A DNA stretch of 46,875 bases from a virus (Duplodnaviria; Caudoviricetes): the IMG/VR virus record IMGVR_UViG_3300023214_000244, positions 1 to 46,875 of that record; one strand, written 5' to 3'. Made by a program: the position numbers and the translations under genes. Position 1 is the stretch's first letter, and each line of letters opens with the position of its first letter. Below are positions 2,355 to 46,729 of the stretch, one piece after another. The notes under the pieces were generated by a model. That model searched no databases. It was not told the DNA's origin and saw only the letters and a list, made by a program, of their open reading frames with translations.

Positions 2355-2665
2355 TGCCGAAGAAGACCCATATTACCAGGGATGAGGTGTCTCCTGATGC
2401 TAAGCGGGTGGTCGACGCGCTTGACCAGGCCGTCCTCGACGTCTTGACCGAGCTGGAGTCCAAGCCGTTGAGCGACGAGCAGAAGACGACGATCGCCAGG
2501 CGGTTTCTCAGATCCATTGTGGCGGCGCAATTGCTCAGCGTGGCCTCGTTTTTGGACATGTTGGGGGTGCTTGGTGGGACCGCGCCGCCTTCGGGGCATC
2601 AGGTCCAGCTCAAGACCGAGGGGAAGACGATCGATTACACGATCGGGGAGGATGGCGAGTCGTGA
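2354..2665 (+). CDS. Hypothetical protein
   Basis: GGAGG RBS, coupled start/stop. Confidence 0.6.
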   Translation: MPKKTHITRDEVSPDAKRVVDALDQAVLDVLTELESKPLSDEQKTTIARRFLRSIVAAQLLSVASFLDMLGVLGGTAPPSGHQVQLKTEGKTIDYTIGEDGES

Positions 2666-29379: not shown

Positions 29380-29632
29380 CCATGTCCCGCGCTTGTGTCT
29401 CGCACGGGACAGGATATGCTGCAAAACATCAGCCCTGGACAGGGCTTGGAGACAGAGGCGGGGACGCTCGACGCTATAATGGGAGTATTGCGCGAGTAGA
29501 GGCCAGTAGAGCTGGCGTTGTAAGTCCCTGGCGGAAGGGCGCCGAGTCGCGCCTAGATTCGCAATTCTGATGTCTTCATGACGTGTCCCGGGCGGGTAGA
29601 ACGCACCCATGTCCTGGGCTTTGTCCCGGGCA
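29380..29632. other. Putative attP region
   Basis: Non-coding gap upstream of the integrase; clustered TGTCCC/GGGACA-like arm repeats at 29383, 29396, 29406, 29436, 29449 and TGTCC(C/T)GGG at 29584, 29610, 29622. Confidence 0.5.
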
Positions 29633-29653
29633 ACACTCAAGGAGGACAGCATC

Positions 29654-30796
29654 ATGCGCACCAAGAAGCGGCACCTGTACCAGCAGGACGGAATCATCAT
29701 CGACCAGGTGGCCACGGGCTATCACGCCAGGGTCCGGGTGCCGGGCCAGGCGACCTACCGGAAGCGGACCTTCCGCCTGTTCGAGGCGGCCCTGGAATGG
29801 GCCAAGGGGCGGCAGGAATCGCTCGACGTGGGCGGGCCGGTGTCGGCATCCCTCGGGGAGGTGGCCAAGGCCTTCCTGCGGCAGATGGAGGCCCGCCAAT
29901 GCACATCAGCGAGCAAGGCCCGGGTCGTGCGGACGGCCAAGCGGGCCATTGCCGCGGGTATCCGGGACCTGGAGGCGGATGGCGTCGCCAAACAGGCCCA
30001 GGAATGGATAGAGGGCCTCACCAGCGCATCCACGGGCCGGCCTTTGGACCCGAAGTCGCGCAACATCTACGCCGTCACGCTGCGCTCGCTGGGCCGGTTG
30101 GCGGTGCAGGAGCGGATGATCCGCCGTAGTCCCTTCGAGCGACTGCGCCTGGTGCCGGTGGACGAGTCCAGCCCCGGGGTCTATCGGCTGTTTGACCTGC
30201 GCCGGGCGGCCGGGGATCGGTACGCCGGGACGCCTGGCTGGTGGGACTTCGTCTGGATCCTCTACACGGGGCTGCGGGTGACGACGGCGGCGCAGGCTAA
30301 GTGGTCCTGGGTCCACCTGGATGAGGAGGTGTTGCATGTGCCGGCCGGATGCCTCAAGGGGCGGCAGGGCCGGCGGCGGGATTTGATCGTGGACCTGCAG
30401 CCCGAGCTGGTGGACTTGCTGAAAATGCGCCAAGAGCAGCGGGACCCCAGCCCGGAGGACAGCATCCTGGATCCGGTCACCTTCAGCCGGGCCAGGGATC
30501 AGGTGACGCGGCGGGTGCGGAACTTCCTGGACGCCATCGGGATCGATCCGCCCGATCATCGCCTGGTGCATGCCCTGCGGCACACGCACGCCTGTCTGCT
30601 GGCGGCCAGCGGGGCCGATAGCTGGGACGTGCAGGACGCCCTGGGGCACCGGACCAGCAAGATGAGCCACCACTATGCCCAGCTGCGCCGCCTCTACCGC
30701 AAGGAGGTGCGGCAAGAGGGGTGGCCGCCCGGGGTCATATGTTTGCGCAGCCTGCCCGCGGCCGAGGACGAGGACTTGGTGGTCCTGGAGGGATGA
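29654..30796 (+). CDS. int: Tyrosine integrase
   Basis: AAGGAGG RBS; catalytic YTGLR, K (LKG), HALRH, LGH, HHY. Confidence 0.92.
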   Translation: MRTKKRHLYQQDGIIIDQVATGYHARVRVPGQATYRKRTFRLFEAALEWAKGRQESLDVGGPVSASLGEVAKAFLRQMEARQCTSASKARVVRTAKRAIAAGIRDLEADGVAKQAQEWIEGLTSASTGRPLDPKSRNIYAVTLRSLGRLAVQERMIRRSPFERLRLVPVDESSPGVYRLFDLRRAAGDRYAGTPGWWDFVWILYTGLRVTTAAQAKWSWVHLDEEVLHVPAGCLKGRQGRRRDLIVDLQPELVDLLKMRQEQRDPSPEDSILDPVTFSRARDQVTRRVRNFLDAIGIDPPDHRLVHALRHTHACLLAASGADSWDVQDALGHRTSKMSHHYAQLRRLYRKEVRQEGWPPGVICLRSLPAAEDEDLVVLEG

Positions 30797-31031
30797 TGAA
30801 AACCCCCTCTTAGATGTCAAAAACTTCCACTTGAATTGCGGGAGGGGCCATTCTAGGCTCCTCCCCGTTTTATCTGGGAGGACCTATTACATGTTGTTTG
30901 CTGATGCTTGGCAGGCTTTGTTCGTCGCGGGGGTCAACCTGCGGACAGCCTGCCGATCCAATTATTTGCTGGACTTCGAGCGGCGGATGGATCTGGACTT
31001 GGCCTTACTGCGTGAAGCCGTGGACGGCATC

Positions 31032-31511
31032 TCAGGTCACGGGCGCAGGTGCAGGCAAGGCGGCGTGGAGCTGTCGCAGCAGCTCCGCCTGCCGAGCGCT
31101 GAGCGAACGTAGGCGGCTGACCTCAGCCCGTAATCGTGCCAATTCCTGGGTCGGCTCATCGCCCGATCCTGCAGGGGGGACTGTATGCAATTTCATCAGC
31201 TCGGACAGTTCAGCGGACAGCCGCTGTTGCAGGCGGCGGCGGGCCAGCCACTTGGCCTGCAGCTCTGGACTGGCGTCCAGCAGGTGGAGCAGCTCGCGCA
31301 GGTACTCCGCCCGAGTGCCCTCCAGGCGCAGGGCGCGGATCCAGTCATCGATGCGGCGCAGTGGCACGGATCTGACCGAGCGGCCCTCCCCCAGGACCGC
31401 GGAGACAGGGCCGTGGTTGGCGTAGCCCAGCCGAGCGGCGAAGTCACGCAACGACCAGTCGCGGCGTCCCAGCTCGCGGAGGATAAATGAACGTAACTCC
31501 TGACGTACCAT
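31032..31511 (-). CDS. CI-like XRE HTH repressor
   Basis: WSLRDFAARLGYANHGPVSAVLG HTH; divergent from Cro-like gene. Confidence 0.75.
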   Translation of the reverse strand: MVRQELRSFILRELGRRDWSLRDFAARLGYANHGPVSAVLGEGRSVRSVPLRRIDDWIRALRLEGTRAEYLRELLHLLDASPELQAKWLARRRLQQRLSAELSELMKLHTVPPAGSGDEPTQELARLRAEVSRLRSLSARQAELLRQLHAALPAPAPVT

Positions 31512-31724
31512 TGTGCGGGCATTATCTGGAGGTGTCCCGCATGTGACAAGTCAAAAAAAACGTGGACGTAAAGGGTTTTGTGTCACAATCGGGACGCGAC
31601 ACCAAACGTGCCACACGTTAATACATTAACTTGACCGTCACAGATGGTCATGCGCTCGCCCCTGACGGAGGTGAGACGGGAGGACTCTAACGTGTGTGGT
31701 TCCAAAACTGTACCAGGAGACGCC
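31512..31724. promoter_or_regulatory. Immunity/genetic-switch region; leftward promoter TTGTCA-17-GATAAT (31549-31521)
   Basis: AT-richer divergent intergenic region; repeated TGTGACA/TGTCACA/GTCACA and AACGTG boxes; imperfect palindrome GTTAATACATTAAC. Confidence 0.65.
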
Positions 31725-31967
31725 ATGCAACTGAAGACCGCCATAGAGCGCCGGTTCCGACAGAGCAAACGCAGCGGCGGCGGTGGGCTGCGGGCCCAGG
31801 CTCAGCTGCTGGACGTGAGCCGCAGTACGCTGCACCGCTGGATGGAGGGGAAGGCGCTGCCGATACGCCGCGGTGATCTGCGCCGGTTGTCGGCTTGGTT
31901 GGGCGTGTCGGTCGAGGACGTGCAGGCCATGGTGACCGATCAAAAGAAGGAGGCTTCCAATGGCTGA
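31725..31967 (+). CDS. Cro-like HTH protein
   Basis: AGGAG RBS; LRAQAQLLDVSRSTLHRWMEG. Confidence 0.75.
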   Translation: MQLKTAIERRFRQSKRSGGGGLRAQAQLLDVSRSTLHRWMEGKALPIRRGDLRRLSAWLGVSVEDVQAMVTDQKKEASNG

Positions 31968-35446: not shown

Positions 35447-35754
35447 TCGACAGAGCTATGGCCGGGCTTTCTGTGGTGGTGGGATCCGTGTCGTTCTTGC
35501 CGTCGTTTGTGATAGCCTGCCTGTGCCAGGGCACCAAGGCCGGGGTCGAATATGGCATGCGCCTGACAGGGTCCGAGCGCTCGGCCGAGGCTGAGCGACT
35601 GGCCAAGATCAGATCGATCATGACCAGGGCCAGCCTAGCCGCAAACATGTCCGATGACCGGCGCATCAAGCAACTGCGGGAGGTGCTCAGTGAGCGCGAG
35701 CTGCAGGAAATCTATCGGCTGGCACAGGATCCCAGCAATCAAGTTGCGTTCTGA
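35443..35754 (+). CDS. Hypothetical protein with N-terminal TM
   Basis: GGAGG RBS; ATGA overlap. Confidence 0.5.
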   Translation: MIDRAMAGLSVVVGSVSFLPSFVIACLCQGTKAGVEYGMRLTGSERSAEAERLAKIRSIMTRASLAANMSDDRRIKQLREVLSERELQEIYRLAQDPSNQVAF

Positions 35755-35759
35755 ACCGC

Positions 35760-35825
35760 AAAAATAAAACCCCCTCCCGTTGCCAGGAGGGGGTCCCTTA
35801 GCACACAAGGAGACACTCCATGTGT
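35760..35825 (-). ncRNA. Candidate small antisense RNA ending in an intrinsic terminator
   Basis: -10 TATACT (35837-35832); 5' hairpin; terminator ACCCCCUCCU-loop-GGGAGGGGGU-UUUAUUUUU; body complementary to the CCTAGCACAC..AAGGAG motifs. Confidence 0.5.
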
Positions 35826-35869
35826 GAAACCAGTATAGGCGTCAGCCTGGGCCGGCAAGAACTCCCGCG

Positions 35870-37126
35870 CTAGGGTTCGGCATCCTCCAGGGCATAGATC
35901 AAGTCCTCCATTTCGTTGAGGCTGGCGACCTGGGCCGGGTTGCCGTCTTGCCGAAGACGGCGCCGATAGTCGCGGCTGATGGTGCGCCACACCTGTACGA
36001 TCCGGCTCGTTGTGTCTGCTGGCTGCGGCGTTTGTACCACCTGGGGCCGCGGTTCAGGCACCGGCTCCGGAGCCGGTGCCGGGGCCGCCTCTGGCGCGAC
36101 ATCGGCGGCGGGGCGCCGGGTCAGCCGCTTGCCTGGTATCCTGCCCAGCTGCTCTTCGCTGAGATTTGCGAAGGCCCATGACAGCCAGTCATCGCAGGAC
36201 TGGAAGACGCAATCAGGGGTCGGAAGGGTCGTGTCGAACTTGCGGCTATTGATCCCGAGGCGCACGGACCGTTGCTGAGCACTGCGAAAGCCGAGGCCCA
36301 GGGCCTTGTCGATCACTCCGCGGGGAAATCCGACACTGATCATGTCCTTAAGGATTTCGGTTTGCCATTCGGTCCACCTCATTCGTGGGGAGCGCCCGTT
36401 GAGTTTTCGCGGTTCCCGAGGTTCTTTGGTGCGCTTCGGCTTGGCGTTCGCTGACGCCGGGAGTGCCGGTGGCTCGTCGCCAGCGAGGAACGCCTGCAGG
36501 ACTCGCCGGTCCTGGATGGGGCCCGTGACTCGCGGGGCCCCCTTGCGCAGCTTCCCCTTTGGCACCCCCTCTTTGTTTTTCGCCATCCGGCTCATCCGAC
36601 AGTTGACTGATGATCGGCTGCGCTGCACAGCCATGGCGATGTCATCAGTCGAATACCCTCGACTGCGCAGAGCCTTGGCGACCTCGATGTCGAATGGCCT
36701 CCATTTGTCCGTCATCTGCATGTCCTCCTGCGTCAACGGTTCTGGTCGGAGCCCGATCAAACACCGGGCCCAGTTGCGCGTCATCACCCAGCCCTGAGCC
36801 GGGTCTACTCGCATGAAAAAGTCCTTGAGCCGTCCCATCTGATAGCCGGCCGGCTCTGACCCTTGCAGGTCCTCGGCCAGGTCGTGGCACAGGCGCCGCA
36901 GTTCGTCGCAGCTGTGGCCCCAGTGGTAGCAGTCCTGGAATAGGGACAGACTGCGGATGGTGGCCGGCTCTTGCCAGGGGTCGCCGCAGTTCGCTAAGAC
37001 CTTATGCACCAAGCCCTTATCCGTTCGCGGGTCCGCCTCTGCACAATAGAGCCAGGCCCAGCCCCTGGTGGGCAGTGCCCCCAGAGGCTGGGCCTTTGCT
37101 CGGCGCCAGGTGCCTGGCCAGTCCAT
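35870..37126 (-). CDS. Hypothetical DNA-binding protein with HTH-like segments
   Basis: LRSRGYSTDDIAMAVQRSRSSV and WTEWQTEIL...LGLG..SAQQR..RLG repeats; long ORF. Confidence 0.6.
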   Translation of the reverse strand: MDWPGTWRRAKAQPLGALPTRGWAWLYCAEADPRTDKGLVHKVLANCGDPWQEPATIRSLSLFQDCYHWGHSCDELRRLCHDLAEDLQGSEPAGYQMGRLKDFFMRVDPAQGWVMTRNWARCLIGLRPEPLTQEDMQMTDKWRPFDIEVAKALRSRGYSTDDIAMAVQRSRSSVNCRMSRMAKNKEGVPKGKLRKGAPRVTGPIQDRRVLQAFLAGDEPPALPASANAKPKRTKEPREPRKLNGRSPRMRWTEWQTEILKDMISVGFPRGVIDKALGLGFRSAQQRSVRLGINSRKFDTTLPTPDCVFQSCDDWLSWAFANLSEEQLGRIPGKRLTRRPAADVAPEAAPAPAPEPVPEPRPQVVQTPQPADTTSRIVQVWRTISRDYRRRLRQDGNPAQVASLNEMEDLIYALEDAEP

Positions 37127-37274
37127 CGCTACTAACGTGTCTTGCACGACTCAACTCCCAAAAGGGAGTGAGACTATCCGTCACGTTTGGGACGCGCAAG
37201 GCCTTTCTTTTGTGTGTGCCTTGGGCCGCAGACGCATGGCCCAACGGACCCGGGCAGCCGCGGCTCGGATTCGA

Positions 37275-37511
37275 TCACTGCGTCGCATGGCTTCCCCTCC
37301 TCCGGGCTTCCAGGTCCAGACAGGCCTGGTCGATTACTTCTGGAGGGTAGATGTCGGATATATCAGAATACCGGACACGCTTATTGATGCTGGACAGGTA
37401 GAGGCCGCAGCCCACCAGGACCAGGTCACGGGACGGCCGCGGTTCGCGGTCCAGCCCGTGGTCCAGCATCCATGCGACCAACTCGCTGGCGGTGGCCTGG
37501 ATGTCATTCAT
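37275..37511 (-). CDS. Hypothetical protein
   Basis: ATGA coupling in the leftward operon. Confidence 0.55.
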   Translation of the reverse strand: MNDIQATASELVAWMLDHGLDREPRPSRDLVLVGCGLYLSSINKRVRYSDISDIYPPEVIDQACLDLEARRRGSHATQ

Positions 37512-37711
37512 GGCTCGCCGCCTTCCTGGGCCTTGATGACGGACCGGGACAGGTCCGACAGTGAGCCGGTCTCACTGCTGACCCAGTCCAGCCGGTCAGT
37601 CAGCGCATCGGGGAGGCGGTAGAGTCGGGCGAGTCGACAGGCCTTTGTGGCCGCGTCGTGGCTTGCGATCAGCAAGCCTATGATTTCGCCGCGCTTTCGG
37701 TCTTTGCTCAT
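37508..37711 (-). CDS. Hypothetical protein
   Basis: Preceded by CCCTAGCACGCAAGGA motif/RBS. Confidence 0.6.
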   Translation of the reverse strand: MSKDRKRGEIIGLLIASHDAATKACRLARLYRLPDALTDRLDWVSSETGSLSDLSRSVIKAQEGGEP

Positions 37712-37782
37712 TGTGATTTCCTTGCGTGCTAGGGTTTGGTGAAACATAACGCCGACGATCCCCCTGTAAAGGGGCGCCGTCG

Positions 37783-37965
37783 CTAGACCGACGCGACGGA
37801 TTCAGCGTCGCGCCGGATTTCTTCGGCCAGGTCCCGGATTTCCTCGGCGGTGATCCTGGCGACCTCGATGGATTGTCGGGTCGCATCGATGGACAGCAGG
37901 TGCAGCCGCCGGGACTTCCGGGCTATGGCCACCAGCAGGTGGTTGGTGATGTCATCTGATTGCAT
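37783..37965 (-). CDS. Hypothetical protein
   Basis: AAAGGGG RBS before MQSDDIT. Confidence 0.5.
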   Translation of the reverse strand: MQSDDITNHLLVAIARKSRRLHLLSIDATRQSIEVARITAEEIRDLAEEIRRDAESVASV

Positions 37966-37993
37966 TGGATCCCCTTTCGTGGGTGTGGTGGAT

Positions 37994-38299
37994 TTAGCGT
38001 CGGCTGCCGCGGTCGATGATTTCCACCAGCTGCGGTAGCGGTCCCTCGGGCCGGATGGCGGTGGAGACCAGGAAGTCGAGGCGAGTGCGTCGCTCCCCGC
38101 CAGCGACCGGAACGCGGGCGGTCCGGTACTGCTCCAGGCCGTTGCGCTGGGTCCGATGATGCCGGGCGGTGGCGCAATGCTCGGCCAGCTCGCCTTCGGC
38201 TCGACCCCAGATCGGGCCGCCGTCGTCATCCGGCCAGCCACAGATGGCTAGGTATTGGCGCACGGCGCGGGCCGTGAGGTACCAGCGATAGCGGGTCAT
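37994..38299 (-). CDS. Hypothetical protein
   Basis: AGGAGA RBS. Confidence 0.6.
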   Translation of the reverse strand: MTRYRWYLTARAVRQYLAICGWPDDDGGPIWGRAEGELAEHCATARHHRTQRNGLEQYRTARVPVAGGERRTRLDFLVSTAIRPEGPLPQLVEIIDRGSRR

Positions 38300-38554
38300 G
38301 TTATGATGTCTCCTGCCCGTGTGGGCGTGTGTGGGTCATGTTATGATGTCTCCTGCCCCGGTCAGGGGCGCTGTGGGCCGGTCAGGCCCGGTGGTGCCCC
38401 GGTCGGGGGCGGTGAGGTGGTGGTGGTACTGCCTCGCCCCCGGCGCCACCACAGCACCAGGGGGTCATCAGCAGGCCGGCCGGGCCGGCGGTGTCCGCCG
38501 CCTACGGGTGGTTCAGCGGACGCTATCGCGCCGCTGATCGTTGACGTTACTGAC

Positions 38555-39214
38555 TTATCTTATGACCAGACCGCCATCGAGGGCCTCGACCCGGCCGCCG
38601 GCGTAGGCCTCGACCCGGCCGCCGGCGTAGGCCACGACCCGGCCGTCGTCGTAGGCCTCGACCCGGCCGCCGGCGTAGGCCGCGACCAGGCCGCCGGCGT
38701 GGGCCAGGACCCAGCCGTCGTCGTAGGCCTCGACCCGGCCGTCGGCGCGGGCCACGACCTGGCCGCCGTCGCGGGCCGCGACTAGGCCGCCGTCGCGGGC
38801 CGCGACCAGGCCGCCGTCGCGGGCCTCGACCGAGCCGCCGTCGCGGGCCGCGACTAGGCCGCCGTCGCGGGCCGCGACCAGGCCGCCGTCGCGGGCCTCG
38901 ACCAGGCCACCGCCGCGGGCCGCGACCAGGCCGCCGTCGCGGGCCTCGACCGAGCCGCCGGCGTGGGCCTCGACCAGGCCGCCGTCGCGGGCCTCGACCG
39001 AGCCGCCGGCGTGGGCCTCGACCAGGCCGCCGTCGCGGGCCTCGACCCGGCCGCCGTCGCGGGCCTCGACCGAGCCGCCGTCGCAGGCCGCGACCGAGCC
39101 GCCGTCGCTGACCTCGACCCGGCCGGCGACCACGACGTGGCCGGTGACCACGACGTGCTCTGTGATCGTATCACCGAGTGCGTCCCACTCGGCCTGTGTG
39201 GTGATGATCTTCAT
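38555..39214 (-). CDS. Octapeptide-repeat (V-E/A-A-R/Y/H-D/A-G-G-x) solenoid protein
   Basis: More than 20 tandem 24-bp units; AGGAG RBS. Confidence 0.75.
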   Translation of the reverse strand: MKIITTQAEWDALGDTITEHVVVTGHVVVAGRVEVSDGGSVAACDGGSVEARDGGRVEARDGGLVEAHAGGSVEARDGGLVEAHAGGSVEARDGGLVAARGGGLVEARDGGLVAARDGGLVAARDGGSVEARDGGLVAARDGGLVAARDGGQVVARADGRVEAYDDGWVLAHAGGLVAAYAGGRVEAYDDGRVVAYAGGRVEAYAGGRVEALDGGLVIR

Positions 39215-39343
39215 GGCTTTTGCTCCTGTTCGGGGTATCTGAGGCCCTGGGCTCCCCCGCCGGGGCTCTCACCCCCCGGCGGGATCGTCGCGCGCAGGCA
39301 CTCCGTGCAGGCCACCCGTGCGGAGACGGGCAGCGGGTGGGGG

Positions 39344-39556
39344 TCAGGCTCGGCGGATCACGTAGGATGGGACGTAGATCGGCACCACGGCGTCCTCGCC
39401 GACGACGTCGCAGGAACCGGAGAAAGCCATGCGGCTCCCATCGGTGAACTCGATCCACTGGATGTCCTGCTCCTGGCCGCCGGCGTAATTCTTGCGGGTT
39501 TCGGTCTGGACGGCGGAGATGGTTTTGCCGACTACCCATCGGGATTGGAAGCCCAT
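39344..39556 (-). CDS. Hypothetical protein
   Basis: AGGAGACAC RBS from the intergenic repeat (MGFQSRW...). Confidence 0.6.
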   Translation of the reverse strand: MGFQSRWVVGKTISAVQTETRKNYAGGQEQDIQWIEFTDGSRMAFSGSCDVVGEDAVVPIYVPSYVIRRA

Positions 39557-39560
39557 GGTC

Positions 39561-39709
39561 GTGTCTCCTGTACTAGGCCCTGAGTGGGCCGGTGGTGCCC
39601 CGGTCAGGGGCGGGGTGGTGGTGGTGGCTCGTCTGGCCAGGGCGCGGGCGGGGACTCCGGTCCCCGCCCTGGTCCTGGTCAGCGAGTGGTCAGGACCCGG
39701 TAGACCCTC
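39561..39709 (-). repeat. Structured intergenic repeat (other copies ~38347-38426, 40767-40896, 41112-41152 partial, 41617-41768)
   Basis: Shared GGGCGGGGAC-tccg-GTCCCCGCCC, (GGT)n, GCCCC-ggtca-GGGGC, GGCCC-tgagt-GGGCC and TGTCTCCT blocks. Confidence 0.9.
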
Positions 39710-40761
39710 TCCGAGACCCCACCGGCGTCGACGCCGAGCGGCAGCCGCAGCACGCGACCCAGTCGCACGTCGCCGTCGCGGTCGATCTCGACGTCCTGGT
39801 CGTCCCGCTCGTCCTCGGTGGCCGGGCGGTACAGGGTCACCCACTCGGGGGTCTGCTCCTCCACGGTCACGTCCTGGACGTCGATCCCCAGGCCCTCCGC
39901 CACCTGCGCGCGCAGGTGGTCGACCTGCGCCCGGACCTGCGCCCGCACCCGCACGGCGTCGGCGGGCAGGCAGTCGGCGTCGGTATCCGACATGGTGCCG
40001 GTGTGCTCGGGCATATCGCCGCCCGGCAGGTCGTCGGCGGCGTCCCGGATGGAGCCGGTCACGACCGCGACGGGCTCGCGCTCGCACAGCTCACCGGCCT
40101 CCCACGCCTCGACGCAGTCGGGCAGGTGCCGGGCGACGACCGCCGCCAGGGTGGCGCGACGGCGCTCGGCCTGCTCGGCCTGCTCGGCCTTGCGCTCGGC
40201 GCGGCGGGCCTCGATCTGCCGCTCCTCCTCGGCGCGGCGGGCCTCGACCTGCGTGCGCAGGTCGTCGGGGAGCAGGTAGGCGTGCCGCACGCGGTCGAAG
40301 GCCACCTCGCCCGCCAGGTAGCGACGCGCCGACGCCTCGGCGTCGGCCGTCGCCTCGGCGAGCGCCTCCGCGACGCGGCGCTGCTCCTCCGCCTCGATAG
40401 CGGCGACGTCGGGGCGCAGGTGCTCCAGGGCGAGCTGCGTCGCCTCGTCCGGCGTCAGGGGCGCGTCGAGCGGATCCAGTCGGCCGGTATTTTTCGCCCC
40501 GCTGAGCGCACCGGTACCGTCTCGGTCGGTGACCGCGTTCGCGTAGGCCTTCCGCGGCGCGCGGACCAACTGATGCAGATCGATCGACGCTCCCCCGCCC
40601 GAGGAGATCTCGGCCAGCTGGAGCAAATCCGCCGTGGCGGGCACGTCGACGTGCTGCCCGCAGCTGCCGTCCTGCCCCGCCAGCAGGGCGGCGCGCTGGC
40701 CGTCCTGGGATAGGGTGTAGTGGATGCGCACGGTGGCGCTGGTGGTGGTCTCGGTGCTCAT
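39679..40761 (-). CDS. Hypothetical protein, 360 aa with coiled coil
   Basis: Long ORF bounded by intergenic repeats; AGGAGACAC RBS. Confidence 0.7.
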   Translation of the reverse strand: MSTETTTSATVRIHYTLSQDGQRAALLAGQDGSCGQHVDVPATADLLQLAEISSGGGASIDLHQLVRAPRKAYANAVTDRDGTGALSGAKNTGRLDPLDAPLTPDEATQLALEHLRPDVAAIEAEEQRRVAEALAEATADAEASARRYLAGEVAFDRVRHAYLLPDDLRTQVEARRAEEERQIEARRAERKAEQAEQAERRRATLAAVVARHLPDCVEAWEAGELCEREPVAVVTGSIRDAADDLPGGDMPEHTGTMSDTDADCLPADAVRVRAQVRAQVDHLRAQVAEGLGIDVQDVTVEEQTPEWVTLYRPATEDERDDQDVEIDRDGDVRLGRVLRLPLGVDAGGVSERVYRVLTTR

Positions 40762-40897
40762 GGTAGGTGTCTCCTGCCCCGGTCAGGGGCGCTGTGGGCC
40801 GGTCGGGCCCTGGTGGTGCCCCGGTCAGGGGCGGGTGGTGGTGGTGGCTGTCTGGCCAGGGCGCGGGCGGGGACTCCGGTCCCCGCCCTGGTCCGGG

Positions 40898-41116
40898 TCA
40901 GGCGCCGTCGATGTGGTCGCGCAGCACTTGGCCGGCGCGGCCCGCATCCCCCACGGGGATGCGCTCGTGGACGGTGCCGTCAGGCATCGCCACCTCGTAG
41001 TGGTCCCCGCGGCGGGTGAGCACTGACATGATGTGCCCTCGAGACACGCCCCCATGGCGCAGGGTCCCGACGAACCCGCGGAAGTCTTCGGGGCGGATGT
41101 GGTAGATTTTGCGCAT
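40898..41116 (-). CDS. Hypothetical protein
   Basis: Repeat-borne RBS. Confidence 0.6.
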   Translation of the reverse strand: MRKIYHIRPEDFRGFVGTLRHGGVSRGHIMSVLTRRGDHYEVAMPDGTVHERIPVGDAGRAGQVLRDHIDGA

Positions 41117-41417
41117 GATGCTGTCTCCTAGGTGTGGCCCTGAGTGGGCCGGGTCGTGGGGTGGTGGGAGTCGGCTTTACGCCGCCGACTCAGGGGCGCG
41201 GGCGCCGGGGTGAGCGGCGCCCTGGGCCGGGTCATCCAGGCGTCAGCGGTCTGTGCTGCGGCAGATCCGGCGGAGAGCTGAGACGCTGCTCACCAGGACC
41301 CCGTCTACCTCGACCCCGGCATCCGCACCGTCGCGAGCCAGACGCTCCATCGCGACCTGTCGCGTGATGGAATACCGTATACCGGACAGTCGCAGCACGG
41401 TGTAGGTATGTCGCATC

Positions 41418-41621
41418 TCACACGTCGAGCAGGGCCAGACGGGCCCCGATCGACCCGAGGTAGGCGCGCAGGATCGCGGGGTCTACCGCATCAGAGTCGA
41501 CGTGCTCGCTCAGCGCGTGCAGATCCCGCCGAGCGGTCCGGAGAAGCTCTTCGGGGCTGAGGTCGCCGAGAGTGCGGGTGCGGGCGCGGGTGCTCATGTT
41601 GTCGTTGGTGGTGGTGCGCAT
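41418..41621 (-). CDS. Hypothetical protein
   Basis: Repeat-borne RBS. Confidence 0.6.
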   Translation of the reverse strand: MRTTTNDNMSTRARTRTLGDLSPEELLRTARRDLHALSEHVDSDAVDPAILRAYLGSIGARLALLDV

Positions 41622-41741
41622 GATGCTGTCTCCTAGGTGTGGCCCTGAGTGGGCCGGTGATGCCCCGGTCGGGGGCGGGTGGTGGTGGTGGCTGTCTGGC
41701 CAGGGCGCGGGCGGGGACTCCGGTCCCCGCCCTGGTCCTGG

Positions 41742-41855
41742 TCAGCGGGTGGCCAGGACCCGGTAGACGGTCTCCGCGAATGGCCCCATGGTGTCCAGCG
41801 CGTAGCGCGCTCGCTGCGGCGACATGCGCGGCGACGTGTCGGGATTGAATCGCAT
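41742..41855 (-). CDS. 37-aa ORF / chimeric remnant ending VYRVLATR
   Basis: GGAGGG RBS; 3' end nearly identical to the 3' end of 39679-40761 (VYRVLTTR). Confidence 0.45.
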   Translation of the reverse strand: MRFNPDTSPRMSPQRARYALDTMGPFAETVYRVLATR

Positions 41856-41857
41856 GG

Positions 41858-42307
41858 CTACACCCTCCATCCGACTTCCTCGCCGCCCATGGTGTTATAC
41901 CGGCCGGATGCCAGCAGCAGCCCGACCGGATAGCCGCGCGGATCCCGGTTGAAAGTTAAGCCCTTGATGGCATTGTCGCCCAGCCAGGGCTGGGCGATGT
42001 TGACCAAGGCCTCCCGGATGCCGTCTTCCAGGGCCCCCTCCGGGTCCACGGTTTGCCACTCCTCGCAAGAGCAGGCGGCTTCATTTATTCGATGGAGGGT
42101 CTCCACAGTCCAGAGGAAATCGAGACACCGGTTTGTGCCGGGAATCGCGCCTTCCGATTCGAGGACTTCGGCCAGCTCCTTTGCCCTGGCCTTGATTCCA
42201 CTGGCCTTGCGCTCCTTGTCGTGATCGAGCCCGGCAGCCCGCAAGACGCGAGTTACCTTGGTGTAGGTGCCGCGCTGGTCGCCCGGCTTGATAGCGTTAT
42301 GGTGCAT
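41858..42307 (-). CDS. Hypothetical protein
   Basis: Motif plus AAGGAG RBS; C-terminal FNRDPRGYPV...YN..GG phage motif. Confidence 0.65.
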   Translation of the reverse strand: MHHNAIKPGDQRGTYTKVTRVLRAAGLDHDKERKASGIKARAKELAEVLESEGAIPGTNRCLDFLWTVETLHRINEAACSCEEWQTVDPEGALEDGIREALVNIAQPWLGDNAIKGLTFNRDPRGYPVGLLLASGRYNTMGGEEVGWRV

Positions 42308-42338
42308 GTTTTCTCCTTCAGTGTGCTAGGGTTAATTA

Positions 42339-42518
42339 TTAGAACGGGTTGTCCCAGTGATAAGCCCGCGGGTGTCCGTCTTTGGCCAGGCTGTCGGTCC
42401 AGTCGTTCCAGGCCTCCCGCATGGCGATGACATCGCCGCGTCCGTATTTCTGGCGGACAAGCGGGGCGATTTCCTCGCGAAAGTATTTCAGGGCTTCTCT
42501 CTTGGTCATGTGTCGCAT
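42339..42518 (-). CDS. Small phage protein (D..A.REAWNDWTD.L.KDG type)
   Basis: Motif plus AAGGAGG RBS. Confidence 0.65.
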   Translation of the reverse strand: MRHMTKREALKYFREEIAPLVRQKYGRGDVIAMREAWNDWTDSLAKDGHPRAYHWDNPF

Positions 42519-42543
42519 GACTCCCTCCTTCAGTGTGCTAGGG

Positions 42544-42684
42544 TTAATTATTAACAGGGACAACAACCGTTGTCCTGTAGCTGCCTTTGTGAAGGCGAAA
42601 GGCGCGGAAAAGCCGGCCATTGCGTATGGTGGAGAAGCACAGTCGCCATCCTTGGGCCAGCGCTTCTTGTTCCGTGGTTGGCAT
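42544..42684 (-). CDS. 46-aa hypothetical protein (MPTTEQEALAQGW...)
   Basis: Motif plus AAAGGAGG RBS; stop abuts the next motif. Confidence 0.5.
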   Translation of the reverse strand: MPTTEQEALAQGWRLCFSTIRNGRLFRAFRLHKGSYRTTVVVPVNN

Positions 42685-42774
42685 GGGATGCCCTCCTTTG
42701 TGCATGGTGTGCTAAGGTTTCGTTGAGGCTTGGCAGCCATAGGGCCCCCGTGATCCACGGGAGCCGAATGGCCG

Positions 42775-43053
42775 TCATCGCAAGGTGTTGTCTTGGCATT
42801 GGTCCGCAAGCCATTGCACCTCGCGTGCCAAGCCATCCAGTTCCGACGCTCGTTGAAGGCGCATATGCGCCCCTTCCTGGTCGGCATCCGATCGAAGGCA
42901 CCTTGCGGCATCTTCGAGCTGCTCGCGTGTGATCGGTTGGGCCTTTACCCCCTTGCTAATGGCAAGCATACGTGAGCCGACCGAATATACGGGGCACGAT
43001 TGGCCGTTGTGCCAGTCGAGTAGGGCTAGGGCTAGTCGTTTGTCGTTCATCAT
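42775..43053 (-). CDS. Hypothetical protein
   Basis: Motif plus GAGGA RBS. Confidence 0.6.
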   Translation of the reverse strand: MMNDKRLALALLDWHNGQSCPVYSVGSRMLAISKGVKAQPITREQLEDAARCLRSDADQEGAHMRLQRASELDGLAREVQWLADQCQDNTLR

Positions 43054-43112
43054 GATCGATTCCTCTGTGTGCTAGGGTTGTGTGTTATTTATTGGCAATG
43101 TAGCGCAGCACG

Positions 43113-43436
43113 CTACGCATTGCAGTTGGCCGCGCTTGCGCTTGACTTATGCCGAATGCTCTCTTGCTCCCACTGGAAGCCGGCGCAATTTACTGAATGT
43201 TGAGCACACGCCATATGATGGCGGGCGCTTTCGCAATGTTTCCCGTGTGCCGTTTCGAAGGCGATAGCGCGCGCGCAGCTACTGAGGGCATGCGCTGCAT
43301 GTCGCCGAACCATCAAGCCATCCTTGCCGTGACAACAGCAAATAGCGTCAATGAGTAGGGCATGTGCAGCGCATGGGTCACGGCCGGACAGGGCCTTGCC
43401 GGCCCGGTTAATCGAGTCAATTACGATGCGGTTCAT
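43113..43436 (-). CDS. Hypothetical His/Cys-rich protein, first gene of the leftward operon
   Basis: Motif plus AAAGGAGG RBS. Confidence 0.55.
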   Translation of the reverse strand: MNRIVIDSINRAGKALSGRDPCAAHALLIDAICCCHGKDGLMVRRHAAHALSSCARAIAFETAHGKHCESARHHMACAQHSVNCAGFQWEQESIRHKSSASAANCNA

Positions 43437-43489
43437 GGTGGTGGTCCTCCTTTGTGTGGTGTGCTAAGGGTTCTGGACAAGGTCCAAGC

Positions 43490-43513
43490 GGTGACCTAAT
43501 ATATTAGGCCACC
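43490..43513. promoter_or_regulatory. Palindromic operator-like site at the head of the leftward operon
   Basis: GGTG-a-CCTAATATATTAGG-c-CACC. Confidence 0.55.
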
Positions 43514-44119
43514 TGTTGGGCTTTGTCTGTCGTTGATGTGTGGCCTCCCCTCTAATCCTGGCCCTAGGATCAGGGGGCGAGTCTGCTGCACTCGTACACG
43601 TGGCCAGCTGCAGCAGAAACCGTGCCGGTATTTGGTCCGTCTAGGACTCATTTCGCGCCCCGGTTCCGGCCTGGCGCTAGCGCTCCCGCGGGATGCCCGC
43701 TCTCACTCGGGCCCCATCCTCGGGAGTCGCTACCTCAGATATACACCTGGCGCCCATCCTCGGGTCCGCTGCACCGTCCTGTGTGGGACTGGGCGCGGCC
43801 GTCAGTCAGTCGGCAGGCTAGCTATCAAAGTCACGACACAGGGGCGGGCTGATGGTTGCCGGTTGCGCTGGAGCGTCTGCCCTGTGTCTCGGATCGGGAT
43901 GGCGGGCTGATGGATGCCGCCTGGCCTGTAGCTCTGTGGCCCGTCCGGTCTGATCTGGTCTGGATCATGGGAAATATCTTTCTCAAGTCCACCATTACCC
44001 TCAAAACCCCCCAGCAAACAGCACCTAAACCCTGTCTGTCACACCAATTGACGTGTATAAGGTTTGCCCTCGTCGTCGCCTGGCTGGTATAGCAGGCGAT
44101 CCAGGGTAGGATCCTGCCC

Positions 44120-44362
44120 ATGGACGCACAGCCGGATCCGAGACATCGTATGGTGCAGATCATCGACCAGTACCGACAGGCGCTAGGCTACTCCGGACGG
44201 CAGCTGGCCCAGGCCTCGGGACTGGAGCGGCGGACCGTGACGGCCGTCCTATCCGGCCAGACACTGAGTCCCGGACTCGAGGTGGTAGACGCCATGAGCC
44301 GGGCCTTGGGCATTCAATGGGAGCCGCGCCACCTGGCCACACTGCCGCGGCTCGATCCCTAG
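44120..44362 (+). CDS. XRE-family HTH regulator
   Basis: YSGRQLAQASGLERRTVTAVLSG...PGLEVVDAMSRALG; TAGGAT 7 nt upstream suggests a leaderless mRNA. Confidence 0.8.
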   Translation: MDAQPDPRHRMVQIIDQYRQALGYSGRQLAQASGLERRTVTAVLSGQTLSPGLEVVDAMSRALGIQWEPRHLATLPRLDP

Positions 44363-45530: not shown

Positions 45531-46729
45531 AAATCACCTGTCCGGTCACCCAGAGGGAGATTATGGCCAAGCCGGCCAAGGATGGTGGGGTCAAGGTCCC
45601 GCGTGGCTGGAAGCGTCACGATGGGCGGATCTATTCGCCGGAGGGGTGGCGCAGCCGGTACATGTTGCGGTCTGTGACGTTTCCTGTGGCCTCGATCGAG
45701 GTGGAGGAGGGCGAGACCAAGGAAGCGGTTTGGAAGGCGTTCCGGGATGCGTGCCATGAGGCGTGGATTTTGACGACCCAGGCCAGTAACTTTCTCATGA
45801 CGGAGTTTGCTCGACAGGATCCGGCTTTGGCTGGGTGGTCGGAGAAGATGCCGAAGATGGCGGCGCCGTATCTGTATCCGGTTGTGCGGGAGCGATTTCC
45901 TGGCCTGCCGTCGATGTCGGTGGTCTCGCTGTGCCAGTCGGTGTGGGGCAAGTATAGCTCCCATCGATTCGCCGTGTCCATCGGCAAGGAATCGCTGCCG
46001 ACGCATCGCTATCCGACGCCGATCCCGATGCATAACCAAGCGTGGAAGACGGTGTTGGTCCATGGTGAGTGCCCTGGCGTGTCTCTGCGTCTGGGGGATC
46101 GTCGGTGGACGCTGCGCTTGCGCGGGGGTCACGGGTTTCACCGGCAGCGGCGGGCCTGGGATCAGATGCACAGCGGGGAGGCCGTGCGGGGCGAGCTGGC
46201 GATCTATCAGCGCAATGCTGGGTCAACGCATCGCCCTGGCGCCACGGGCAAAAAGGAAGTCTGTGTCAAGCTGGTGGCGTGGTTGCCCAAGTCGGAGCAT
46301 GGGCCGCGGGATGCGGGAACGTTGTTCTGCCGGACCGATGCCAGTGCCCTGTTGGTGGCGCTGAACACGAAGGACCACCAGCTGTGGACCTATCATGGGG
46401 ATCACATTCGTCGGTGGCAGGCCGAGCACCGGGAGCGGCTGCAGCGCTTGGCTGACGACTCGAAGTTAGAGGATCGCCGCCAGGGCATCCCGTTTGCGGA
46501 TCGTCGGCGGGCGGAATGTGCCCGCTTCAATCGGCGCATGAAGAGCGCGGCCCAGCAACTGGCGGCCAAGGCGGCCGGGTATGCCAGACGGCGGCGGTTC
46601 GAGGCCGTCAAGTTGACGCTGGGGACGGACAAACCCGACTTTGTCTGGCATCAATTCGTCACCTGCCTGGAGCAGAAGTGCGACGAGTTTGGTTTGGAGT
46701 TCGAACAAGTCGAAATGCGAGCAGAATGA
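45527..46729 (+). CDS. Miniature (~400 aa) TnpB/Cas12-like CRISPR effector with degenerate, truncated RuvC; probably nuclease-dead
   Basis: Adjacent to leader+array; WED-like SLPTHRYPTPIP and LRLGDRRWTLRL; bridge helix; helix RRMKSAAQQLAAKAAGYA; FVTCLEQKCDEFG matching TnpB 'L.YKA...G'; no GxD RuvC-I, no RuvC-II Glu, ends before zinc finger/RuvC-III. Confidence 0.75.
   Translation: MKITCPVTQREIMAKPAKDGGVKVPRGWKRHDGRIYSPEGWRSRYMLRSVTFPVASIEVEEGETKEAVWKAFRDACHEAWILTTQASNFLMTEFARQDPALAGWSEKMPKMAAPYLYPVVRERFPGLPSMSVVSLCQSVWGKYSSHRFAVSIGKESLPTHRYPTPIPMHNQAWKTVLVHGECPGVSLRLGDRRWTLRLRGGHGFHRQRRAWDQMHSGEAVRGELAIYQRNAGSTHRPGATGKKEVCVKLVAWLPKSEHGPRDAGTLFCRTDASALLVALNTKDHQLWTYHGDHIRRWQAEHRERLQRLADDSKLEDRRQGIPFADRRRAECARFNRRMKSAAQQLAAKAAGYARRRRFEAVKLTLGTDKPDFVWHQFVTCLEQKCDEFGLEFEQVEMRAE

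What the first reader, a model, noticed from the sequence alone, without database searches (positions are those of the whole stretch)
35760..35860. Candidate trans-acting sRNA complementary to the translation-start motif of about ten leftward genes
A minus-strand unit has -10 TATACT, a possible -35 TTGCCG (spacing only 15 nt) and a terminator. It would give ACACAUGGAGUGUCUCCUUGUGUGCUAAGGG plus the terminator hairpin. This is antisense to CCCTTAGCACACAAGGAGACAC. Close variants precede leftward genes on their mRNA strand: CCCTAGCACGCAAGGA (37734-37719), CCCTAGCACACtgAAGGAG (42331, 42543), CCTTAGCACAC (42717), CCCTAGCACACAGAGGA (43077) and CCCTTAGCACAC (43470). AGGAGACA occurs in the large repeats. 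The unpaired GCUAAGG between the hairpins matches the most conserved target bases, like a toehold. Inference: one RNA occludes the SD of a whole early-gene regulon, in the spirit of P1 C4 / P4 CI RNAs.
Basis: partly seen in the sequence, partly recalled or inferred. Interest (0 to 1): 0.75.

Follow-up and report, generated by a model that had tools for sequence, protein, structure and literature searches.

The report
Phage RNA mirroring early-gene start sites
An uncultured phage carries one backwards copy of the short sequence that precedes eleven of its small, likely early genes, placed between a promoter-like site and a terminator-like hairpin, so it likely makes a 66-base RNA that would pair with those genes' ribosome-binding sites and silence them together, although no RNA data or related genome was available to confirm this.

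Summary
The window is a complete temperate phage. The box CCT(T)AGCAC occurs 7 times (1.1 expected): six times ahead of leftward Shine-Dalgarno (SD) sites, once inverted at 35796. That copy lies between a -10 hexamer and the strongest leftward terminator-like hairpin, predicting a 66-nt RNA. It is predicted to bind 11 of 18 leftward and 1 of 31 rightward gene starts (the integrase) at -10 kcal/mol or better. Its 28 nt are the genome's best match to both leader classes. The anti-SD is hidden in a hairpin; a free linker serves one class, a 3-nt loop the other. Read on the plus strand the hairpin buries SD and ATG, so the 17-aa ORF is unlikely. No relative and no RNA run was found, so expression and covariation are untested. 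It is not a C4 or CI family member. The layout matches the unexplained start-associated sequences (SAS) of cluster K mycobacteriophages, whose single inverted copy I found in a conserved hairpin loop in 6 of 13 phages. The scan has noted this arrangement before in many other phages. Best reading: multi-target antisense repressor, about 0.65.

The parts
35760..35825 (-). Predicted 66-nt small RNA (start inferred 7 nt after the -10; end at the U-tract)
   Evidence: Fold z -5.8 for 35760-35826; start site inferred, no RNA data
35795..35822 (-). 28-nt guide, antisense to box + SD + spacer + AUG of the leftward leaders
   Evidence: Its sense form ranks 1 of 84,148 28-mers for likeness to the 7 leader groups
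35803..35825 (-). 5' hairpin that hides the anti-SD; 3-nt loop UGU at 35815-35813; the U-U mismatch keeps the anti-AUG base
   Evidence: an arm this good arose in 49 of 400,000 random flanks
35795..35802 (-). Linker GCUAA (free) plus GGG (weakly paired): predicted toehold for class-1 leaders
   Evidence: Opening 2.8 kcal/mol; holding GCUAA unpaired costs the 6 class-1 leaders 8.5-11.1 kcal/mol
35760..35794 (-). Intrinsic-terminator-like hairpin with U-tract; also the likely end of the leftward operon
   Evidence: strongest clean hairpin-plus-U of 5 candidate places on the minus strand 35700-44100
35832..35837 (-). -10 hexamer TATACT
   Evidence: One of 30 such hexamers in 93,750 positions
35853..35858 (-). 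Possible -35 TTGCCG at a non-canonical 15-nt spacing
   Evidence: not listed by the promoter scan
35820..35873 (+). 17-codon ORF whose SD and ATG are buried in the mirror hairpin; probably not translated
   Evidence: 13.2 kcal/mol to open, the highest of 24 starts tested
43434..43470 (-). Class-1 leader of gene 43436-43113 (first gene of the leftward block)
   Evidence: Cofold -17.6 kcal/mol
43051..43077 (-). Class-1 leader of gene 43053-42775
   Evidence: Cofold -12.4
42682..42717 (-). Class-1 leader of gene 42684-42544
   Evidence: Cofold -15.0
42516..42543 (-). Class-1 leader of gene 42518-42339 (PHROG 336; relatives in T7-like and T4-like phages)
   Evidence: Cofold -11.9
42305..42331 (-). 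Class-1 leader of gene 42307-41858
   Evidence: Cofold -13.7
37709..37734 (-). Class-1 leader of gene 37711-37508, just behind promoter-like site 37770-37743
   Evidence: Cofold -12.9
41619..41640 (-). Class-2 leader (AGGAGACA) of gene 41621-41418
   Evidence: Cofold -11.1
41114..41135 (-). Class-2 leader of gene 41116-40898 (paralogue of the 41621 leader)
   Evidence: Cofold -10.2
40759..40775 (-). Class-2 leader of gene 40761-39679
   Evidence: Cofold -13.6
39554..39577 (-). Leader of gene 39556-39344, with features of both classes
   Evidence: Cofold -16.3
38297..38354 (-). Class-2 leader of gene 38299-37994, tandemly duplicated (AGGAGACA at 38354 and 38314)
   Evidence: Cofold -10.4
29629..29656 (+). 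Integrase leader, a likely twelfth target; nearly the same as the 41621 leader from SD into the first codons
   Evidence: Cofold -10.8; fourth distinct place in the 28-mer ranking; Pfam PF00589
43491..43512 (.). Palindrome over a -10 hexamer at the head of the leftward block; likely operator-promoter
   Evidence: Single copy; -10 at 43503; HTH gene 44120-44362 nearby; function inferred
35870..37147 (-). Last leftward gene (weak D5-like regulator hit; start 37147 or 36715); its 3' untranslated region holds the RNA unit; not a predicted target
   Evidence: PHROG 323, E 6e-7; cofold -4.6 and -2.6

Best explanation
The element is the phage's single inverted copy of its leftward-gene leader, and it is likely transcribed leftward as a 66-nt RNA that would base-pair with, and so block, the ribosome-binding sites of eleven leftward genes and the integrase. 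Shown in the sequence: the -10 hexamer, the two inverted repeats, the U-tract and the complementarity. Predicted: a 5' hairpin keeps the anti-SD shut, which would spare ordinary mRNAs. Pairing would start at the free GCUAA linker for the six box-bearing leaders and at or near the UGU loop for the five AGGAGACA leaders, then open the hairpin and cover SD and AUG. Inferred: the RNA comes from its own promoter or from the 3' end of the leftward operon, which ends at the same terminator. Its job would be to keep a block of early, probably harmful genes quiet in the lysogen or to shut them off once the operon has been read through. Rightward read-through from the cro operon would make a perfect complement and could titrate it (speculative).
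For: Motif excess, 7 against 1.09. Good -10 seven bases before the first paired base; 30 such hexamers in 93,750 positions. Hairpin arm in 49 of 400,000 random flanks. Terminator on the minus strand only. Cofold: 11 of 18 leftward, 1 of 31 rightward starts and 5 of 494 random 80-mers at -10 kcal/mol or better, with no leftward value between -10.2 and -4.6. At equal length the guide binds the other leaders better than the inverted copy of any leader, 11 of 11, and it ranks 1 of 84,148 28-mers: it looks like a composite of both classes, not a copy of one. The two exposed segments map onto the class-specific letters. The sense reading is the most occluded of 24 starts. Analogy tested here: the single inverted SAS of Adephagia is the open loop of a hairpin, kept exactly in 6 of 13 cluster K phages; across 8 aligned phages 5 of 16 stem pairs show changes on both sides.
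Against: No homologue was found, so there is no conservation or covariation for this element. The -35 spacing is 15 nt. Most of the guide is locked (13.3 kcal/mol to open), so binding may be slow without a chaperone. The cofold contrast is partly circular, since the guide was spotted by its likeness to these leaders, the starts were hand-picked, and the 11 leaders form only 7 independent groups. When leader-derived guides are lengthened to 38 nt, 5 of 11 beat the 28-nt candidate. GGAGACA before ATG is common in other phages, and an unrelated contig, L012, has two CCTAGCAC+SD leaders before terminase and capsid genes with no inverted copy in 8.8 kb, so the leaders may be plain CA-rich enhancers. 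In cluster K the loop is missing in 5 of 13 phages, of which Pixie and TM4 were checked and keep SAS, and it is altered in 2 whose SAS is unchanged.
Confidence: 0.65

Rival explanations
1. Inert relic: a leader cassette was inverted next to an ordinary terminator, and its matches follow from a repeat family of CA-rich translation enhancers.
For: The leftward block is full of duplicated cassettes. ACA motifs enhance translation (PMC3879156, abstract). A similar box occurs before structural genes of unrelated contig L012. The terminator is needed anyway for the leftward operon.
Against: The copy is closer to all leader groups than any leader is. None of the 11 leaders has the downstream mirror arm seen here. 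The -10 and the hairpin are each unlikely by chance.
Confidence: 0.15
2. The box is a protein-binding site (a stoperator-like DNA site, or an RNA site for a translational regulator), and the plus-strand copy is one more site that stops or marks the end of the rightward operon or soaks up the protein.
For: All 7 copies point along local transcription, as stoperators do (PMC9283540, passages). No U-tailed plus-strand terminator follows the last rightward gene. The phage has several small DNA-binding proteins.
Against: A protein site would not need SD, spacer and ATG in register, nor the match to class-2 leaders that lack the box, nor the hairpin and the opposite-strand -10.
Confidence: 0.12
3. 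The element works on the plus strand as the leader of the 17-aa ORF 35820-35873, read by run-through from the rightward operon, with the hairpin as a translational brake.
For: SD and ATG are well spaced (7 nt) and no clear plus-strand terminator lies before it.
Against: Its SD-AUG is the least accessible of 24 starts (13.2 kcal/mol; the 11 leaders need 1.5-10.9). The peptide is hydrophilic, unlike type I toxins (sequence; general knowledge). The U-tract and -10 both face the other way.
Confidence: 0.08

Closest known systems
Start-associated sequences (SAS/ESAS) of cluster K mycobacteriophages (PMC3203893, section 15 part 1 of 2 and passages read; PMC11373665, section 19 and passages read; cluster EF in PMC7302621, passages read)
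   Same: An asymmetric private motif at the ribosome-binding sites of non-structural genes, in one orientation, with a single inverted copy tied to no gene start. Function is stated to be unknown in 2011 and in 2024. I found the K1 inverted copy in a hairpin loop.
   Different: No sequence likeness. Here the box lies 0-8 nt upstream of the SD instead of containing it, there are two leader classes, and the anti-SD is inside a stem with its own -10 and terminator. In Adephagia it is an open 10-nt loop in the gap where late transcription is reported to start.
P1/P7 C4 antisense RNA (Rfam RF01695 as named in an earlier scan note; described in PMC5320573, passages read) and P4 CI RNA (recalled, no paper read)
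   Same: A small phage RNA with two exposed segments that pairs in trans with the phage's own mRNA at and upstream of a ribosome-binding site.
   Different: No Rfam match. Two hairpins instead of three stem-loops. No sign that it is cut from a precursor by RNase P. About 12 dispersed targets instead of sites in its own operon. No antirepressor recognised among the targets.
GcvB sRNA (PMC3879156, abstract read)
   Same: A GU-rich guide against CA-rich sequence just upstream of the SD of many mRNAs.
   Different: GcvB is a host regulator of amino-acid genes. No Rfam match here; this RNA is about 66 nt, phage-encoded, also covers SD and AUG, and hides its guide in a stem.
P22 sar and lambda OOP RNAs (PMC12197685, passages read)
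   Same: Size (68-77 nt) and repression of the phage's own genes by pairing.
   Different: Each has one named target gene (ant, cII). Here the predicted targets lie 1.9-7.7 kb away (6.1 kb for the integrase) and pair imperfectly.

Membership tests
P1/P7 C4 antisense RNA | Match to the Rfam covariance model | tested here: not met
   0 matches at gathering score in the whole window; 5 sub-threshold matches to other families, E 0.89-9.1, in 35600-36000
P1/P7 C4 antisense RNA | Three stem-loops with guide loops a' and b' | tested here: not met
   Predicted fold is one guide hairpin plus a terminator; C4 fold from PMC5320573
P1/P7 C4 antisense RNA | Released from a longer transcript by RNase P | not testable with these tools
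   No RNA run listed
P1/P7 C4 antisense RNA | Guards an antirepressor operon (recalled) | tested here: inconclusive
   No antirepressor family among the 11 target proteins; 10 of 11 have no Pfam or PHROG hit
P4 CI RNA | Targets flank the RNA gene in its own leader and cause early termination (recalled) | tested here: not met
   Predicted targets are ribosome-binding sites 1.9-7.7 kb away; no Rfam match
Cluster K SAS | Asymmetric conserved motif at starts of non-structural genes, one orientation | tested here: met
   6 of 7 copies before leftward starts, none before structural genes
Cluster K SAS | Single inverted copy with no gene start (K1 phages) | tested here: met
   One plus-strand copy at 35796; it does precede a 17-codon ORF with a buried start
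Cluster K SAS | The 13-bp consensus containing the SD | tested here: not met
   Different letters; box and SD are 0-8 nt apart
Cluster K SAS | Upstream ESAS inverted repeats holding a promoter | tested here: inconclusive
   Class-2 leaders follow repeated GC-rich hairpin pairs, but no promoter-like site was found in them
GcvB | GU-rich seed pairing with CA-rich sequence upstream of the SD | tested here: met
   Predicted duplexes for the class-1 leaders; prediction only
GcvB | Match to the Rfam model | tested here: not met
GcvB | Hfq dependence | not testable with these tools
   Host not identified
sar / OOP-type single-target antisense RNA | Overlaps its one target gene on the opposite strand (recalled; OOP listed as cis in PMC12197685) | tested here: not met
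   It overlaps only the 17-codon ORF
Cluster A stoperators | Asymmetric sites oriented with transcription | tested here: met
   All 7 copies; definition from PMC9283540
Cluster A stoperators | More than twenty 13-bp sites bound by the immunity repressor | tested here: not met
   7 sites with an 8-12 bp core; binding not testable

The most novel reading that the evidence does not exclude
Phages that put a private tag on the ribosome-binding sites of their early genes switch them off together with one RNA made from a single inverted copy of the tag: an RNA-only master repressor of translation, and the missing partner of the SAS motifs unexplained since 2011. This phage would show a two-key version, in which a self-locked anti-SD is opened by a linker for one gene class and by a loop for another, with rightward read-through as a built-in antidote.
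Probability: 0.4. Interest if true: 0.85.

Novelty: new variant of a known kind. Interest (0 to 1): 0.6.

Why it matters
The phage antisense RNAs in the review passages I read (sar, OOP, aQ, 24B_1) each guard one named gene. One 66-nt RNA covering about a dozen start sites would be a regulon-wide switch with no protein, relevant to how prophages keep early genes silent and how lytic timing is set. It also gives a concrete hypothesis for the SAS motifs, still called ill-defined in 2024 (PMC11373665), that can be tested in a cultured phage: the hairpin loop in the Adephagia 92-93 gap. A natural hairpin-locked anti-SD with two entry points would interest RNA engineers. The paper searches (listings only, open-licence library) showed no report of an RNA partner for SAS or of such a multi-leader phage RNA.

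Tried and rejected
Relatives. None by megablast in cultured phages, by exact 21-mer in viral contigs, or by neighbour proteins in viral, metagenome and genome contigs. The gene next to the element has no homologue but itself among the 8,000 candidates scored. The best exonuclease homologue is 39% identical. A 76%-identical relative of gene 40761 exists on a 27.8-kb contig, but its DNA could not be fetched. Eight loci found with the 38299 protein family were too distant: 1 chance box, in coding DNA of L009. Two loci from the hairpin-repeat pattern shared no protein with the window. The box+SD pattern gave 4 viral loci, none sharing a protein with the window. RNA: no RNA holder listed; DNA contigs showed no variants at the element. 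CRISPR link: none of the 9 spacers tested matches the element or the leaders beyond 11 nt, and the repeat found no host genome. Considered and dropped: a T7/T3-type promoter (no RNA polymerase among the 45 ORFs scanned against Pfam; the AT-rich letters at 42331 and 42543 are stop codons); a sigma-54 promoter (no -12 element, recalled consensus); G-U wobble bias in target mismatches (too few changes to inform). Loop-SAS covariation in cluster K was looked for and not found: Amohnition and TClif have altered loops and unchanged SAS.

Full report
Setting. The window is one circular contig with a 106-nt terminal repeat. It encodes a terminase, a capsid-like protein, a tyrosine integrase (29654-30796), repressor-like HTH genes, an excisionase, an exonuclease, Sak4 and RuvC, so it is a temperate tailed phage. 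The three exonuclease homologues named with a taxon are from Planctomycetota, a weak hint at the host. A rightward operon ends at 35754, and a block of small leftward genes runs from 43436 to 35870. The element lies in the 115-nt gap where the two converge.

Observation. CCT(T)AGCAC occurs 7 times; 200 dinucleotide shuffles gave a mean of 1.09 and a maximum of 5. Six copies lie on the minus strand 0-8 nt before an SD and ATG (class 1). The seventh is on the plus strand at 35796. Five more leftward genes start with AGGAGACA and an ATG inside duplicated GC-rich cassettes (class 2). The plus-strand copy reads box, SD, ACA, spacer, ATG, so it joins the marks of both classes. At two leaders a -10-like hexamer lies upstream of the box (43503 and 37748), which puts the box inside the mRNA leader.

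Anatomy of the inverted copy. On the minus strand TATACT (35837-35832) is followed 7 nt later by the first base of a hairpin. Only 30 hexamers that good exist in 93,750 positions. The -35 candidate is 15 nt away, which is poor; other intergenic -10 sites in this phage (29304, 29475, 43503) also show no obvious -35 (read by eye). The predicted RNA folds into a 5' hairpin, a free GCUAA linker and a terminator, z -5.8. An 11-nt arm with at most one mismatch at that distance arose in 49 of 400,000 random genomic flanks. The U-U mismatch in the upper stem is the base that pairs with the A of AUG. The terminator is the strongest clean one of 5 candidate places on the minus strand between 35700 and 44100, and no U-tailed plus-strand terminator follows 35754. 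So the leftward operon probably ends here too and would carry the guide in its 3' end even if the small promoter is silent.

Predicted targets. I cofolded the 66-nt RNA with 80-nt windows around 50 hand-picked starts (18 leftward, 31 rightward, the CI-like gene). Eleven of 18 leftward starts bind at -10.2 to -17.6 kcal/mol and the other 7 at -4.6 or weaker. One of 31 rightward starts passes -10 (integrase, -10.8), one more reaches -9.0, and the CI-like gene gives -1.2 (Mann-Whitney p 1e-4). Five of 494 random 80-mers pass -10; true leaders were not excluded from that draw. The contrast is partly circular, and the 11 leaders form 7 independent groups. Holding the linker unpaired costs class 1 8.5-11.1 kcal/mol and class 2 0.2-4.3; holding the UGU loop unpaired costs class 2 6.8-10.4 and class 1 1.4-5.0. 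Blocking any part of a duplex weakens it, so the informative point is only that the two exposed segments face the class-specific letters.

Is it just an inverted leader? If so it should resemble the family no more than a member does. At 28 nt the guide binds the other leaders better than the reverse complement of each member, 11 of 11. With member guides of 33 nt the best member ties (-30.4 against -30.6), and at 38 nt 5 of 11 do better. Among 84,148 genomic 28-mers that contain GG, the sense copy ranks first for mean likeness to the leader groups (24.7; next distinct place 22.4; members were scored on 6 groups, their own left out), and the integrase leader is the fourth distinct place. The plus-strand reading is unattractive: its SD-AUG needs 13.2 kcal/mol to open, the most of 24 starts. 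Against my reading, GGAGACA before ATG is seen in other phage loci, ACA is a known translation enhancer (PMC3879156, abstract), and unrelated contig L012 has two similar box+SD leaders before structural genes and no inverted copy in 8.8 kb.

What could not be shown. Searches for relatives failed, so there is no covariation for this element. Runs X1 and X2 of one study hold the same DNA without variants here, and X1 may be the window's source. Expression is untested.

Mechanism. Most likely (0.65) the RNA is made leftward, stays shut against ordinary SD sequences, docks on its targets through linker or loop, and then covers SD and AUG. Timing is inference. A constitutive promoter would suit silencing in the lysogen, behind a transcriptional lock at the palindrome over the -10 at 43503. 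A 3'-end origin would suit shut-off after the early operon has been read through. Ten of the 11 target proteins have no Pfam or PHROG family; one belongs to PHROG 336, with relatives in T7-like and T4-like phages. Rivals are an inert inverted cassette (0.15), a protein-bound site (0.12) and a plus-strand micro-ORF (0.08).

Comparison. No Rfam family matches. C4 has three stem-loops and is cut by RNase P (PMC5320573, passages); this RNA works like C4 at most, and fails membership. P4 CI is recalled, not read. sar and OOP each have one target (PMC12197685, passages). The closest layout is the SAS of cluster K mycobacteriophages: a private motif at non-structural gene starts, with one inverted copy in four K1 phages and function left open (PMC3203893), still ill-defined in 2024 (PMC11373665). 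I tested that copy. In Adephagia 16 SAS are forward and 1 is inverted. The inverted one (58,682-58,694) forms the open loop of a long hairpin in the 92-93 gap, where late transcription appears to start (figure not seen). Of 184 phage records with a match to that stretch I examined 13 cluster K phages, counting TM4, which was not among the rows shown. The exact loop is present in 6, altered in 2 and absent in 5. Across the 8 phages that have a loop, 5 of 16 stem pairs change on both sides; the 5 without it were left out of that alignment. SAS did not change where the loop did, and Pixie and TM4 keep SAS without it. The analogy is therefore real but partial, and it is not homology. Supplementary figures of these papers were not seen and may bear on it.

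Novelty and score. Phage antisense RNAs and multi-target GU-rich sRNAs are known, so this is a new variant of a known kind. Six paper searches (listings only) showed no report of one phage RNA against a shared start motif. Earlier scan notes describe the same arrangement in many other phages (83 notes held the search words) and none on this DNA; they are leads, not support. What is particular here is the self-locked guide with two entry points and the integrase as a target. Interest 0.6: a clean and testable anatomy tied to an open question, held back by the lack of relatives and RNA data.

Noticed in passing
window 45563-46729 and 104-993 (adjacent across the circular join): A 388-aa TnpB/Cas12-like protein (Atlas look-alikes 0.95-0.96, no Pfam hit) followed by a CRISPR array of 11 repeats with 37-42-nt spacers. 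By eye the protein ends before the zinc finger and may lack nuclease residues. The leader is duplicated inside the array (378-525). The 9 spacers tested have no self-target, and the repeat found no host genome.
   Followed up: partly
L015:33655-33725 (Adephagia 58,654-58,724) and L018-L027: The single inverted SAS of K1 mycobacteriophages is the open loop of a conserved hairpin near the reported late-transcription start; exact in 6 of 13 phages examined.
   Followed up: yes
window 38350-38420, 39575-39615, 40775-40835, 41130-41155, 41640-41680: Repeated pairs of 5-bp hairpins with CTGA-containing loops, in opposite orientations, precede the class-2 leaders. A shorter look-alike sits in the spacer of the candidate promoter (35838-35849). 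Role unexplained; relatives in runs X2 and X3 carry diverged copies.
   Followed up: partly
window 29629-29670 and 41605-41640: The integrase leader and first codons nearly duplicate those of leftward gene 41621, which suggests the integrase picked up a leftward cassette leader.
   Followed up: partly
window 2382-2409: A second guide-like stretch inside plus-strand gene 2354-2665; score 17.8, between the 99th and 99.9th percentile of 84,148 windows, so within chance.
   Followed up: partly
window 37994-38299: A 101-aa protein of a family with 113 representatives and no Pfam or PHROG hit. Some members carry a C-terminal extension that looks ribbon-helix-helix-like by eye.
   Followed up: partly
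window 43491-43512 and 44120-44362: A single-copy palindrome over a -10 hexamer at the head of the leftward block, with an HTH gene on the other strand: a likely second repressor circuit beside the CI/Cro pair at 31032-31967.
   Followed up: no
window 30793-30820: A minus-strand promoter-like site (TTGACA, 16 nt, 10 of 12) at the end of the integrase gene, pointing into it.
   Followed up: no
L012:7410-7440 and 2530-2555: An unrelated phage contig has nearly the same box+SD leader before its terminase and capsid genes.
   Followed up: partly
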